Shown here in pieces: positions 17,509 to 59,606 of a DNA stretch of 64,000 bases (the stretch's first letter is position 1; each line of letters opens with the position of its first letter). A program made the position numbers and the translations under genes. The DNA comes from Pristiophorus japonicus (Eukaryota), in assembly GCF_044704955.1 (NCBI RefSeq), contig NC_091980.1, forward strand, positions 128,340,001-128,404,000, written 5' to 3'. Below the pieces are notes generated by a model, which did not search any database, was not told the origin of the DNA, and saw only the letters and a list, made by a program, of their open reading frames with translations.

Positions 17509-19835
17509 ATGGCTTCCCAAGTGCGTCAGAACTGCCACCAGGACTGTGAGGATGCTGTCAACAAGCAGATCAACATGGAGTTCTATACCTCCTATGTTTA
17601 TCTCTCTATGGTGAGTTTTGTATTTTAGTCTCCATTGTGAAGTGGTCTATGTAATGTGAATTTACTAATCCAGCCCACCTATTCTGAGTATTTTGAATGA
17701 CTCACTTTCCTGGGCTTTTTTGAGCTTGTTGTTGAAGTTTATTTGGAATACATTCTGCACTCAATACATGGATTTCAGAATTTGTATCCTCATTCTAAAT
17801 CACTCCATGGCATTTCCCTACTTGCCTTTGCAATGAGGGGATGTAATAAAATTAGAGCTAGAACATTTTAGGGGGAAATCAAGAAGTACCCTTTCCTGTA
17901 TGTGTGGACGAAATCTGCAACACTGCTTCCCATTTCACCACCCCTCCCCACTAAAATTATTTAATAAAAAACTGGGTTTGATGCTGTGCCAAGGTTATCT
18001 GGAATACTTTATTTCCCCCACCCACCAATCTCCTCAGGAAAATCAAGGTTTTGATGCTGGACTCTGGTTTTTCATTGGGTAAGGGTATCAAAAGATTATC
18101 TGCATAATGTATGGACAAGCAACTCTCTTTATCTGCACACGGATGCAACAGGAAACCGTTGTAACGGCATTTAACATTCCACTTGTGCGCTCTGCCGACA
18201 TCACTTTGAAATGCTGATGTTCCTTTTGAATGTTGCCTGTTGAGCCTTGCTTTTAAGCACTCCACCCTGCCTCAGCTCCTGCTGCTACACCCACACAGTT
18301 CCATTGCCTCTCATAATTCATTAAAATGGCATGAGCAGTTATAGGAAGTAATCAACAAGCCTAATGCTCTTTAGATCTAGAGGACTAGAATTCAAGGATT
18401 AGAAGAGATGCTTCAGCTATTGGTTAGAGCAAACCTGCAGTACTGTAAGCATTAACAAATGTCAACTCGCTCTAATGGAGAAATCATTTAACTGGCATAG
18501 ACCAATCCCCAAGGGACCTGGATAATCGAGATGCCTGTATATACAAGTTCAGTGAGACTTTGAACCCTTGAAAGAAAGCAAGCAAAATTGAGCTTGAAGT
18601 TATGTACTGCACACGATGCTGGGTCTGCCATGCCTCACCCAACTACTGTGCTGATCTCTCCATAGTCCATCTACTTTGACCGGGATGATGTTGCCCTGTG
18701 TCACTTTGCTGAGTTCTTCAAGGAGCAGTCACATGCGAACCATGAGCATGCTGAGAAACTAATGGAATTCCAGAATTGGCGAGGAGGACAGATCGTCATC
18801 TTGTCTGACATCAAGGTTGGATTCAGTAAAGGAGTGGCCTTCTGTCTAGCTCCCCTTCGACTGATTGTTCCCAATACATGCTAAAGCAATTACTTCCAAT
18901 TTACAGCACACAGGCCATTCAGCCAAGCTGGTCTTTGCTGGTGTTTATAGTGCAGTAAGCCTCCTCTCCTTGCTTCATCTCACCCCCTCAGCATATCATC
19001 CTATTCCTTTCTCCATGCACTTGCCCAGCTTCCCAAAAATACATCTATGCAATTTGCCTCATCAATATCACTCCAGTGGTTGTGATAGCTCAATGTCAAT
19101 TTTATATTCTAACACACCGGTTCATGGTAAAGTAGACTTTTGCACCACTAATTTCCTTCAATACTTTCTAATTTGTTTAATCTATTGTAAGTGAACTGTG
19201 AGCATGTAATTTCTTTCCAGAAACCAGAGCAGGATGAGTGGAGCAATGGTCTGGTTGTGATGGAGAGCTCTGCAGATGGATAAGAATGTGAACCAGAGTC
19301 TGCTGGATCTGCACAAACTCTCCACTGGGAGCACTGACCCTCATGTAAGTTGTGAATAATTTAATGTTGGTTGTTGGGTTAGTTGGATATTGTGCTACCT
19401 TGCTGACCTTGAGCCTAATTAAAAGCTCTCCATGTCTAATAGCTTTCTGTTGGTCTCATTGGTCTGTATTTGGGAGCAGAGAGGAGGGACGGGGGAAGTG
19501 AGCCTACTGTGGACAGTGACTAGATATGTCTGATCCCAGGATCTGAGCATCTATTGTGCAGTAAGTTTAATCGAATGATGCAGTAATTCCATCAATCTCC
19601 ATTGTACCACTTGACTATCCTCTTGTTCAAAAGGATTAAAATCCAAACTCCTGAAGGGGAAGCTGACATTCCTTGATATCTGCTGCTGGACATAACTAGT
19701 TTCCCTCTTTCAGTTGTGTGACTTCCTGGAGACCCACTACTTGGATGAACAAGTGAAGATGATCAAGAAGCTTGGAGATCACATCACCAACCTGAAGAGA
19801 CTGGGAGCCCCTGAGAATGGCCTGGGAGAGTACCA
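17509..19835 (+). pseudogene. FTH1-like: Ferritin H/M-type pseudogene (copy 1); exons 17509-17610, 18666-18815, 19221-19344, 19714-~19835
   Basis: [20 protein letters not shown]...; GT-AG introns. Lesions: EEREH changed to ANHEH at the ferroxidase centre; 2-bp deletion in exon 3 giving TAA near 19281; exon 4 diverges after GEY, losing the stop and polyA region; retroposon tail in the 5' UTR. Confidence 0.92.
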
Positions 19836-20344
19836 GTTCAGACGAGTGCAGAAAAAGTCCTGGATTAATATCCTATTTTGTGTTTGGCCCTGGAATTAGC
19901 TGCTGTAGATCCTGTTCAGTTATTATTGCAGCTTGTTCAGTCACCGAACTGACCACTGCTGTTGTCGACGTTGTTAAGCTTTGTAGGCCGAGCAGCAACT
20001 GCTGTACAGACCAGCAATGTCTGAGTGCATTGAACCATGGGGACTACAATTGGGTGAGGAAGGAAAGCAACAGGTGGCAGCAGCTTGCTGTCACAGCTTC
20101 ATTGGTTAGTGTGGATACCCACGTGTAGTGGTTCTGGGACAGATTCTCGTGTACCTAATCCCACCTCATGTTTGAATAATTTGCCAACGTGCTCTGGGCT
20201 CGCATGGATAAGGTATTGAAGGGATACCTGTGTAACTGTACTCCCAACACATTATTCTGGAAGGAGTATATGTATTTCCTTACATGCGCCAAGTAAAAGG
20301 ACCAAGAAGTTAAACACAGACCTTTGAAAAAACATTTCCCCCAC

Positions 20345-56487: not shown

Positions 56488-57728
56488 GAGATTAGGCTGA
56501 CTGGCCTGTAATTACTCAGTCAATCCATTTCTTTCCTTTTAAACAGATGTACATTAGCAGTCTTCCAGTCCTTTGTCATCACACCTGTAGCCAGAGAGGA
56601 CTGGAAAATGATGCTCTTATCCAGGATGAGCTTTAATAGTATTTCTCCGTGGAGGAGGAGAAATGGATCCCCTTGCCGTGGACAGCAGGCTAAAATCCAG
56701 GCTGCATCTTTGAACAGGACAGGAATTATTTTGACTTTTAAAAAAAAAAAAAAAAAAATTTGATGCAAGGGTTTGGAAATTTACAAATGAGATGCCTCTT
56801 AAATTTAGTTTTCACTCTCCACTGACGGGCTGTGGGCACATTCCTCAGTTGCTGCAGCCCTTCATTGCTTGTTCCTCCTTGTATTATGAATGAATACATT
56901 TGGAAGGGGAATTATAATTTGAGCTTCCATACATACATACCTGTGAGTAGTGCAGAGTGTTTCCTATAGTTGAGCAGTGTTGCAAATCCACCTGTGTACT
57001 TTCATCCAAATCCAGATTGCCCCATTGCAAACAGACTGATGGGGGACATTTGTGTGTGTAAATTGACCACTTAAAAAAAAACTCATTGCCTGAACAGCAA
57101 AAGAACTTCAAGGGCTATGACGTCCTTTGGGCTGTCCTGTATGAAAGGCATCAAATCAAGGCAAAATTTGATTAACCTTGACTCAGGCACTCACACACTT
57201 GTCTCTGCAGTTGTCAGTCAACTATGATCTTATGGAATGGTGGAACAGGCTCAAGGTGCAATTGGGCATGCTCCTACTTCTGTTTTTAGGTATTAGCATG
57301 GAGTGGGGTGAACATTGACCCAATATATTTAGGTGATTATGTAGATAAACAGTTAACCATTAGCACAGTCCTCAGTTCAGAGTGAGGAACACATGTCGGA
57401 ATATCCAACTCAACACATGGATATACACCAGAGGAAAAATAAATTTCATAGGACTTAATCTATAAAAAAAAACCTGTTACACAACTCAGTGTAATTCTTG
57501 TTTGATGTAAACCACGTTATGTTAATTGAAAAATAAGCAACCACCTCAAATATACAAGATGACAAAATCCAGTCTAATGTTGAACATTTTATTGACAGCT
57601 ATGTTACATTTCACATCAAGCACACAGGTCACACAGCTCTTTGTACAAAGTCATAAGCCCTAATTGCCAACAGGAAAGGAGTTTAAATTTTAGGAATACA
57701 AAGTACTAAACAAATCCCATCAGTCAGT

Positions 57729-59606
57729 TTAGTCACTCTCCCCCAGTGTGTGCTTGTCAAACAGGTACTCTCCCAGGCCAGTCTCAAGGGCTCCCAGTCT
57801 CTTCAGGTTGGTGATGTGATCTCCAAGCTTCTTGATCATCTTCACTTGTTCATCCAAGTAGTGGGTCTCCAGGAAGTCACATAACTGAAAGAAGGAAGCT
57901 AGTTATGTCCAGCAGTAGATATCAAGGAATGTCAGCTTCCCCTTCAGGAGTTTGTATTTTAATCCTCGAACTGGAGGATAGTCAAGTGGTGCAATTGAGA
58001 TAGATAGAATTACTGCATTAGATTAAATTTACTGCACAATAGGTAGGTGCTCAGATCCTGGGATCACTGGGACACATTTACTAGTCACAGTCCACAGTAG
58101 GCCAACCTCCCCCATCCTTTCCCACTGCTCACCAACAAAAAAAAAAAAGGGGGAGACTTACACAAAGCTATTATGCATAGAGATCTTTTAATTAGGCCCA
58201 ATGACAGTCAGGTAAATTGGAGACTGTGGGACCTAAAAGCCCACATTAAATCATTAACAACTTACATGAGGGTCAGTGCTCCCAGTGGAGAGTTTGTGCA
58301 GATCTAGTAGACTCTGGTTCACGTCCTTCTCCATCTGCAGAGCTCTCTGCATTGCCTCCAGACCATTGCTCCACTCATCCTGCTCTGGTTTCTGGAGAGA
58401 AAATTCCACAGTTTATTTACAATTGATGATACAATCATTAGAAAGTATTGAAGGAAATTAGGAGTCCAACCAAATTCTATTTTAACATGAACATATATTA
58501 GAATTTAAAATTTGCCATGATGCAATCACAACAACTGGAGCCATATTGATAAGGCAAATAGCAGAGATGTATTTAAGGGGAAGTGCATGGGGTGAAAGGA
58601 ATAGAACAATATGCTGATGGGGTGAGATGACACAAGGTGGGAGAAGGCTCGTGTGGAGTTATAAACACCAGCAAAGACCAGTTTGGCCAAATGGCCTGTG
58701 TGCTGTAAATTGGAACCAATTGCTTTAGCACATATGGGAACATTTAGTCTAAGAGGAGCCATACAGAAAGCCACTCATTTATTAAATCCAACCTTGATGT
58801 CAGACAAGATGATCCATCCTCCACGGCGATTCTGGAATTCCATCAGTTTCTCAGCATGCTCACGTTCCTCATGTGACTGCTCCTTGAAGAACTCAGCAAA
58901 GTGACGCAGGGCAACATCATCCCGGTCAAAGTAGAAGGACTGTGGAGAAATCAGAAAAGTATTTTTGTGCATTATTTCACAGGCCTATTATGTGTGCTGT
59001 ACATAAATTCAATCTCAAAATGTTGCTTTTTTTGAAGGGTTCAAAGGCTCACTGAACTTGTATGTATATTGTCACAGAAACAATATTTTTATACCCTTAC
59101 CCAATAATAAAGTTTGGCCCAGAATCAAAGCCATTTTTTGTGTGCTGTAGGAGGATGGGAAAGAAAGGGTTCCAGATTTCCACCACCCTTACAGGAAAGA
59201 ATACTTCTGAACTTCCTTTCTAAATGTCCAAGCTCTAAATTTTAAAAGATGACATCCTCCACTAAAAAAAAAGCAAGGTAATGAAAGTCCATGGAGTGCT
59301 TTATTATAAAGGATACAAGTTCTGAAATACATGCAGAGTGCAGAATGTATTCCAAATAACTTAACCACAAGCTCAAAAGAGCCCAAGAAAGTGAGTCATT
59401 AAGATTCAAGATACTCAGAATAGGTGGGCTGGATACAGCACCGAATTTAATAAATTCACATTACATAGTCTCCATTTTGAAGTGGTCAAATGTACAACAC
59501 TCACCATCGAGAGATAAACATAGGAGGAATAGAGCTCCATGTTGATCTGCTTGTTGACAGCATCCTCACAATCCTGGTGGTAGTTCTGACGCACTTGAGA
59601 AGCCAT
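57729..59606 (-). CDS. FTH1-like: Ferritin H/M-type subunit, 176 aa (copy 4); exons 59606-59505, 58939-58793, 58391-58266, 57884-57729
   Basis: [182 protein letters not shown] near 57588. Confidence 0.94.

What the first reader, a model, noticed from the sequence alone, without database searches (positions are those of the whole stretch)
17509..59606. Tandem ferritin cluster under birth-and-death evolution (3 intact genes, 1 pseudogene, traces of further units)
Seen: four paralogs with the same 4-exon layout (102/147/126/156 bp in the intact copies). Copies 2, 3 and 4 are head-to-tail on the minus strand and share unit architecture: flank motif, gene, promoter, Tx1 remnant, then SINE or LINE. 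In human H numbering, E27, Y34, E61, E62, H65, E107, Q141 and the 3-fold channel D131/E134 are all present in copies 2-4. Glu replaces His57 and Met replaces Ala144. Established: most vertebrates have few intron-containing ferritin genes. Inference: a lineage-specific DNA-level expansion, not retrocopies.
Basis: partly seen in the sequence, partly recalled or inferred. Interest (0 to 1): 0.7.

Follow-up and report, generated by a model that had tools for sequence, protein, structure and literature searches.

The report
Shark ferritin array with broken iron-switch
These are four copies from the large, already reported shark array of iron-storage (ferritin) genes, and all four have lost the RNA switch that normally ties ferritin output to iron levels, which may suit bulk iron storage in eggs.

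Summary
The four ferritin paralogs are real: three open 176-aa genes with GT-AG introns and one pseudogene. They are not FTH1 orthologues; they nest among sawshark paralogs in a chondrichthyan-specific, probably M-type clade. The expansion is shared by many sharks and already in print: a Greenland shark preprint reports over 150 copies in three clusters, syntenic with white shark, the largest ovary-specific. So it is neither unexpected nor species-specific. 'Traces of further units' are not supported. Best reading: iron-independent, dosage-driven ovarian ferritin. The scan's notes held no earlier report of this.

The parts
17509..19838 (+). Copy 1, ferritin pseudogene (exons 17509-17610, 18666-18815, 19221-19344, 19714-~19838); frameshift in exon 3, E61A/E62N, 3' end and polyA signal lost; mosaic with copy-3-type flanks and copy-2-type introns
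28059..30411 (-). Copy 2, open 176-aa ferritin (exons 30411-30310, 29242-29096, 28710-28585, 28214-28059); 10 private non-synonymous vs 3 synonymous changes, probably relaxed
38186..40357 (-). Copy 3, open 176-aa ferritin (exons 40357-40256, 39370-39224, 38834-38709, 38341-38186); E140K
57729..59606 (-). Copy 4, open 176-aa ferritin (exons 59606-59505, 58939-58793, 58391-58266, 57884-57729); clearest purifying selection; junctions bridged by relatives' contigs
17398..17422 (+). Decayed IRE of copy 1 (18 of 22 to the Rfam consensus; loop changed, two upper-stem mismatches)
30431..30455 (-). Decayed IRE of copy 2 (15 of 22; bulge C lost, loop changed)
40377..40401 (-). Decayed IRE of copy 3 (18 of 22; loop changed, two upper-stem mismatches)
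59626..59650 (-). Decayed IRE of copy 4 (18 of 22; bulge C lost, loop changed)
17057..17364 (+). Copy 1 promoter: TATA box at 17357 and 3 CCAAT boxes
30482..30789 (-). Copy 2 promoter: TATA box at 30489 and 5 CCAAT boxes
40435..40742 (-). Copy 3 promoter: TATA box at 40442 and 3 CCAAT boxes
59678..59985 (-). Copy 4 promoter: TATA variant (first T is C) at 59685 and 4 CCAAT boxes
16825..17029 (+). Tx1-like LINE 3' remnant upstream of copy 1 (equivalents at 30842-31048, 40767-40979, 60024-60223)
1..20343 (+). Block that is an inverted duplicate, in interrupted pieces of 77-95% identity, of 54925-37467 (copy-3 unit and its upstream), each side with its own TE insertions
31199..33054 (.). SINE/LINE block upstream of copy 2, 84% identical to 61649-63523 upstream of copy 4 (shared unit type)

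Best explanation
The window is a slice of the ancient elasmobranch ferritin array. The array is derived from a non-H (M/B-type) ferritin gene and turns over by unequal crossover, inversion and gene conversion, so copies are born, mix and die. The open copies encode cytosolic (no signal peptide) subunits with a full ferroxidase centre. The IRE in the 5' UTR was disabled before these duplications, so their mRNAs should escape IRP repression; output is then set by transcription from a TATA/CCAAT promoter and by gene number, not by cell iron. The most likely use is bulk ferritin synthesis in the ovary or oocyte to stock and detoxify iron for large yolky eggs, while single-copy fth1a and a single-copy M-type gene keep housekeeping roles. 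Shown here: gene models, tree position, mosaicism, IRE decay at sequence level. Taken from a paper on another shark: ovary-specific expression. Inferred: loss of IRP binding, ovarian expression of these copies, the egg-iron role.
For: Gene models and residues. Purifying selection: dN/dS 0.155 for copies 3-4 (Fisher p 9e-6), 0.29 for 2-4, 0.42 for 2-3. Tree: window copies in an 11-row clade with sawshark paralogs (95/86) inside a 25-row chondrichthyan clade (99/95), apart from chondrichthyan fth1a (100/99); joining array and fth1a is rejected, p-AU 0.023. One fth1a and one conserved M-type gene per shark, the latter on a contig of the same length as the array copies in 8 of 8 species where both were listed. 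Preprint: 155 'FTL' and 179 'FTH1' copies, three clusters, ovary-specific largest cluster. IRE: the only 3 of 127,958 positions with 18 of 22 matches to the Rfam consensus are the UTRs of copies 1, 3 and 4; 0 of 20,000 shuffled queries did as well (copy 2: 15 of 22, p 0.005). Rfam scores 3 of 3 control vertebrate H mRNAs at 53-56 bits but gives no IRE in the window or in the 2 UTRs scanned alone. Loop and bulge mutations de-repress human FTL. Gene models that read from the TATA box to the ATG in Cetorhinus, Heptranchias and Heterodontus reach only 14-15 of 20 to the IRE core; 6 H-chain models that read through the IRE reach 18-20. Snail yolk ferritin also lacks an IRE. Relatives' contigs bridge the introns at the predicted junctions.
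Against: No expression or tissue data for these copies. The preprint says about 80% of copies are in three clusters and reports ovary specificity only for the largest; which cluster this window matches is unknown. Support for the M/B-type placement is moderate (97/86 with a long hagfish branch; 91/77) and no mammalian L chain was in the trees. The transcription start is inferred from the TATA box, so an upstream IRE-bearing exon is not excluded. The SELEX loop variants listed in the SIREs figure could not be read. The Pristis model could still encode an IRE-like loop with 4 of 5 stem pairs. Of four copies one is dead, one looks relaxed (binomial p 0.50 against neutrality) and one has E140K, which fits weak selection on single copies. 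The CCAAT excess is clear only in copies 2 and 4 (p 0.002, 0.012; 0.06 in copies 1 and 3).
Confidence: 0.6

Rival explanations
1. Largely neutral expansion: a repeat-rich region keeps duplicating a redundant ferritin gene; the IRE decayed because most copies are barely used, and conversion from a few functional copies keeps exons alike.
For: Copy 1 dead; copy 2 private changes 10 non-synonymous to 3 synonymous; TE-dense spacers; mosaic copy 1.
Against: Copy 4 has 8 synonymous to 3 non-synonymous private changes (p 0.0002) and copy 3 about 5 to 5 (p 0.03); 53 of 59 full-length sawshark paralogs keep all seven ferroxidase residues; clusters syntenic over about 250 My and tissue-specifically expressed.
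Confidence: 0.17
2. Somatic oxidative-stress or iron-toxicity defence by dosage, as proposed for the 14 fthl27 copies of hadal snailfish; IRE loss gives constitutive ferroxidase capacity in many tissues.
For: Precedent with cell assays; intact ferroxidase centres.
Against: The only tissue statement found for the shark array is ovary-specific; the array is shared by shallow and deep, short- and long-lived sharks.
Confidence: 0.15
3. The genes remain iron-regulated, through a non-canonical IRE or an unseen upstream exon.
For: The remnant keeps 15-18 of 22 consensus letters and some stem pairing; non-canonical IRP-binding loops exist.
Against: Copies 2 and 4 lack the bulge C; copies 1 and 3 have two upper-stem mismatches, beyond the one that SIREs allows; predicted folds are not IRE hairpins; the four remnants differ from each other, as expected for free decay.
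Confidence: 0.06
4. Assembly or haplotype duplicates.
For: One inverted segment is 94.6% identical (2699-6095 vs 54795-51394). No read depth could be obtained.
Against: Introns 2 and 3 are only 75-94% identical between copies, with copy-specific insertions; many sharks hold such arrays.
Confidence: 0.02

Closest known systems
Shark ferritin clusters in the Greenland shark genome preprint (bioRxiv 10.1101/2024.09.09.611499; section 6 read)
   Same: Large clustered ferritin expansion in sharks, mostly full-length copies, old and syntenic; almost certainly the same family.
   Different: The preprint labels the copies FTH1 and FTL; here they fall outside FTH1 and keep the ferroxidase centre. The section read gives no tree, no IRE analysis and no conversion analysis. 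Different species.
RefSeq/UniRef 'ferritin heavy chain B-like / higher subunit-like / oocyte isoform-like' models of Pristiophorus japonicus and other sharks
   Same: Best matches 159, 169 and 167 of 176 residues for copies 2, 3, 4; same clade.
   Different: Automatic names only; none of the fetched proteins is identical to a window copy.
Hadal snailfish fthl27 tandem array (PMC10746142; passages read)
   Same: Tandem, intron-level ferritin expansion with high expression proposed as a dosage adaptation.
   Different: 14 copies, recent, broadly expressed, teleost; the shark array is far larger and older.
Snail yolk ferritin (PMC10799875; abstract and passages read)
   Same: IRE-less ferritin tied to egg provisioning.
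   Different: Secreted, with a signal peptide and a 42-aa insertion, made mainly in the digestive gland; the shark copies have neither feature and are many genes.
Human FTL IRE mutations of hyperferritinemia-cataract syndrome (PMC8196845; passages read)
   Same: Changes in the loop and the bulge C uncouple ferritin synthesis from iron.
   Different: A disease allele of one gene; here an apparently fixed state of a gene array.

Membership tests
Vertebrate cytosolic ferritin | Ferritin domain and four-helix-bundle fold | tested here: met
   Closest relative P0008 (90-96% identical to copies 2-4): Pfam PF00210 E 1e-39; model matches human H and frog M ferritin at TM 0.93-0.96. Copy 4 exon 2 hits ferritin chains in PDB. 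The spliced window proteins were not folded.
Vertebrate cytosolic ferritin | Four coding exons with GT-AG introns | tested here: met
   junctions bridged by relatives' contigs
Vertebrate cytosolic ferritin | Functional 5' IRE (bulge C, 5-bp stem, CAGWGH loop) | tested here: not met
   sequence-level test only
FTH1 (H-chain orthologues) | Groups with chondrichthyan fth1a | tested here: not met
   separate clades; p-AU 0.023
FTL-type light chain | Ferroxidase centre absent (definition recalled) | tested here: not met
   E27, Y34, E61, E62, H65, E107, Q141 present in copies 2-4. No L chain was in the trees, so orthology to FTL was not tested.
M/B-type ferritin | Groups with amphibian, lungfish and coelacanth B/M chains | tested here: inconclusive
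   97/86 (includes a long hagfish branch); 91/77 and 85/84
M/B-type ferritin | Ferroxidase activity and homopolymer assembly | not testable with these tools
   residues only; E140K in copy 3 lies at a site recalled as an iron-transit residue (E140 mutant structures 3ajp, 3ajq listed)
Elasmobranch ferritin array | Member of the chondrichthyan-specific expanded clade | tested here: met
   99/95; M144 in all but one of the shark array rows shown with a residue list and in none of the H rows
Elasmobranch ferritin array | Ovary-specific expression | not testable with these tools
   reported for the largest Greenland shark cluster; no tissue data here
Birth-and-death gene family | Functional, decaying and dead copies side by side | tested here: met
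Birth-and-death gene family | Copies diverge independently, without exchange | tested here: not met
   informative sites: 28 of 31 group copies 1+3 upstream of the ATG; 35 of 36 group copies 1+2 in intron 1; 0 of 2000 permutations as extreme
Invertebrate yolk ferritin | Signal peptide and 42-aa insertion | tested here: not met
   176-aa proteins align without insertion to cytosolic ferritins

The most novel reading that the evidence does not exclude
Sharks evolved, before their orders split, a vertebrate counterpart of yolk ferritin: an M-type gene that lost its IRE and was amplified to a hundred or more ovary-expressed copies, so that oocytes make ferritin in bulk regardless of iron status. 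This would be a natural, fixed escape from IRP control, coupled to gene dosage, at a scale not described in other vertebrates in the papers searched.
Probability: 0.45. Interest if true: 0.62.

Novelty: new member of a known kind. Interest (0 to 1): 0.4.

Why it matters
The array is known but described in one paragraph and, on this evidence, mislabelled as FTH1/FTL. Showing that its genes are a separate ferroxidase-competent clade with a dead IRE gives a testable reason for both the copy number and the ovarian expression, and offers natural IRE-decay alleles to compare with human hyperferritinemia mutations. It also argues against reading the expansion as a longevity or deep-sea trait of one shark species.

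Tried and rejected
No genome is held for this window, so copy counting and read depth were not possible. Run search: no RNA holder listed; best share 0.08. Laying four relatives' runs showed far more contigs on the exons in X1 (1854) than in X7 (53), same organism code; contig depth cannot measure expression and tissues are unknown, so this is not used. That call gave no letters for the 5' UTR. Rfam found no IRE. Searches for other shark DNA with a ferritin 5' UTR failed: metagenomes gave 14 distant ferritin loci of 43-68% identity, prokaryote genomes none for P0008 and 6 vertebrate-type contaminant contigs for P0099, viral contigs none. A second Greenland shark preprint (10.1101/2025.02.19.638963) has 0 occurrences of ferritin or fth1 (term search only); I recall a later version reporting an FTH1b expansion but could not check it. 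PMC13701976 is irrelevant. Ten paper searches found no paper on IRE loss in shark ferritins; the library lacks most subscription journals, and bioRxiv supplements were closed, so the preprint's supplements may bear on this. Rejected: retrocopies (introns shared); traces of further units at 26470-26770 (repeat-like, no exons); 260-720-aa multi-domain 'ferritins' in the database (most likely gene models fused across adjacent copies; not tested). In one search one private change each in copies 1 and 3 (codon 76) was mislabelled by a tie in the consensus; counts are approximate by one. Intron 1 identities involving copy 3 (63%) are lowered by a non-homologous insertion.
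Full report
Observation. A self-comparison of the window shows four mutually similar units at 79-89% identity. Alignment and exon mapping give copy 1 on the plus strand (ATG 17509) and copies 2, 3, 4 on the minus strand (ATG 30411, 40357, 59606). Copies 2-4 have exons of 102, 147, 126 and 156 bp, GT-AG introns, 176 codons, a TATA-like box 78-85 nt before the ATG and an AATAAA after the stop. Copy 1 has a 2-bp deletion in exon 3, E61A and E62N, and a deletion of its 3' end. 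tblastn finds ferritin exons only in these four copies, so further units are not shown inside the window. Contigs from related organisms bridge introns 1 and 2 at the exact predicted junctions, and single contigs span exons 2-4 (RNA status of the runs is a guess).

Identity. Exon 2 of copy 4 retrieves mostly shark proteins, led by Pristiophorus japonicus. Among proteins listed, 98 distinct sequences carry that species label (a lower bound, possibly with isoforms); 53 of the 59 that are 176 aa long keep all seven ferroxidase residues. None is identical to a window copy. Related copies are annotated in Heptranchias, Heterodontus, Chiloscyllium, Hemiscyllium, Stegostoma, Rhincodon, Scyliorhinus, Mustelus, Carcharodon and Cetorhinus, with one ray (Pristis) and two adjacent chimaera genes in the clade. 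The window is therefore a shark, probably a sawshark or close relative (inference). In a 69-row tree the window copies nest among sawshark paralogs (95/86) within a chondrichthyan clade (99/95) that is separate from chondrichthyan fth1a (100/99) and from a single-copy elasmobranch gene (100/98). Forcing array and fth1a together is rejected (p-AU 0.023). The array groups with amphibian, lungfish and coelacanth B/M chains at moderate support. The single-copy gene lies on contigs of the same length as array copies, fth1a on others, which suggests that the array arose at the M-type locus (inference).

What is known. [quoted passage not shown] The expansion itself is thus published. A 14-copy fthl27 array is described in hadal snailfish (passages), and ferritin transcripts are abundant in zebrafish follicles (passages).

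How copies evolve. dN/dS is 0.155 (copies 3-4), 0.29 (2-4), 0.42 (2-3) and 1.07 (1-2). Private changes, synonymous to non-synonymous: copy 4, 8 to 3; copy 3, about 5 to 5; copy 2, 3 to 10; copy 1, about 3 to 15. Copy 2 alters residues that are invariant in 59 of 59 sawshark paralogs (G75, P124), so it may be on its way to a pseudogene. Copy 3 has lysine at E140. There are two unit types: copies 2 and 4 share upstream and downstream flanks, as do copies 1 and 3, and 1-20343 is an interrupted inverted duplicate of 54925-37467. Yet copy 1's introns are 91-94% identical to copy 2's. Informative sites switch from 1+3 to 1+2 between 17497 and 17629 and back after exon 4; 0 of 2000 permutations matched this. 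A conversion tract of about 2.3 kb with ends in exons 1 and 4 is the simplest reading; direction from a copy-2-like donor is likely, not proven.

The IRE. Rfam reports no IRE in the window or in the UTRs of copies 3 and 4 scanned alone at E<=10, while it scores 3 of 3 control vertebrate H-chain mRNAs at 53-56 bits. Scanning the Rfam consensus (printed) over 127,958 positions, the only three with 18 of 22 matches are the 5' UTRs of copies 1, 3 and 4; copy 2 has 15. They lie 34-41 nt after the TATA box, where a cap-proximal IRE belongs. All four have A at the third loop position instead of G; copies 2 and 4 have lost the bulge C; copies 1 and 3 have two mismatches in the upper stem. By the SIREs rules as read (passages) none passes, whatever the loop; the figure listing SELEX loops could not be seen. 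Loop and bulge mutations release human FTL from IRP control (passages). An indirect test used database gene models whose N-terminal extensions translate the 5' UTR: 6 H-chain models reach 18-20 of 20 to the IRE core by best back-translation (2 others with short unrelated extensions, 13-14), while 10 array-type models reach 13-15. Three of these visibly run from the TATA box to the ATG (Cetorhinus, Heptranchias, Heterodontus); two cannot encode an IRE and the third only directly on the TATA box. The Pristis model is ambiguous. Of the 33 models given to the script, 15 had no anchor or too short an extension. This sample is small and biased to stop-free UTRs, but it suggests that the loss is old.

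Mechanism. Most likely these genes are transcribed from a TATA/CCAAT promoter (3-5 CCAAT boxes within 300 nt), translated without IRP braking, and supply ferritin by gene dosage, with the ovary as the main site. This parallels IRE-less snail yolk ferritin but without its signal peptide and insertion. Sequence-level steps are shown; IRP escape and the ovarian role are inferred. Rivals are neutral expansion, somatic stress defence, residual iron regulation and assembly artefact, weighted above.

Verdict. Real, and a new member of a known shark array. Added value lies in the subtype correction, the decayed IRE and the conversion mosaic, none of which appeared in ten paper searches. The scan's earlier notes held nothing on this family. 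Interest 0.4.

Noticed in passing
window 7827-15555: A 5'-truncated Tx1-like LINE (8872-14510; zinc knuckle, endonuclease, RT; interrupted ORF2) is flanked by a 1045-bp direct repeat (7827-8871 and 14511-15555; 1022 of 1045 identical), an unusually long target-site-like duplication.
   Followed up: partly
window 43600-50700: Two adjacent decayed Ty3/gypsy-like retrotransposon remnants (aspartyl protease and integrase zinc-finger hits), present on only one side of the inverted block.
   Followed up: no
window 2699-6552 and 50785-54795: Inverted segment at 93-95% identity holding RT/RNase H/integrase remnants, more alike than neighbouring parts of the same block (77-89%); recent conversion or a separate element.
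   Followed up: partly
window 17428-17494: 67-bp A/T-rich insertion in the 5' UTR of copy 1 with an upstream ATG, near the mosaic breakpoint.
   Followed up: no
window 60769-61155: C-rich 33/62-bp minisatellite upstream of copy 4.
   Followed up: no
proteins P0102, P0268: The two adjacent chimaera genes at the base of the array clade have lost ferroxidase residues (Q141, and E61/E62 in P0268).
   Followed up: no
proteins P0099, P0318, P0377; loci L015-L019: Shark-type ferritins are filed under Aeromonas and Salmonella names, and vertebrate-type ferritin mRNAs sit in bacterial assemblies; database contamination.
   Followed up: partly
proteins P0001-P0004, P0376-P0389: Many 260-720-aa shark 'ferritins' repeat exons 2-3; probably gene models fused across tandem copies, though true two-domain subunits are not excluded.
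   Followed up: no
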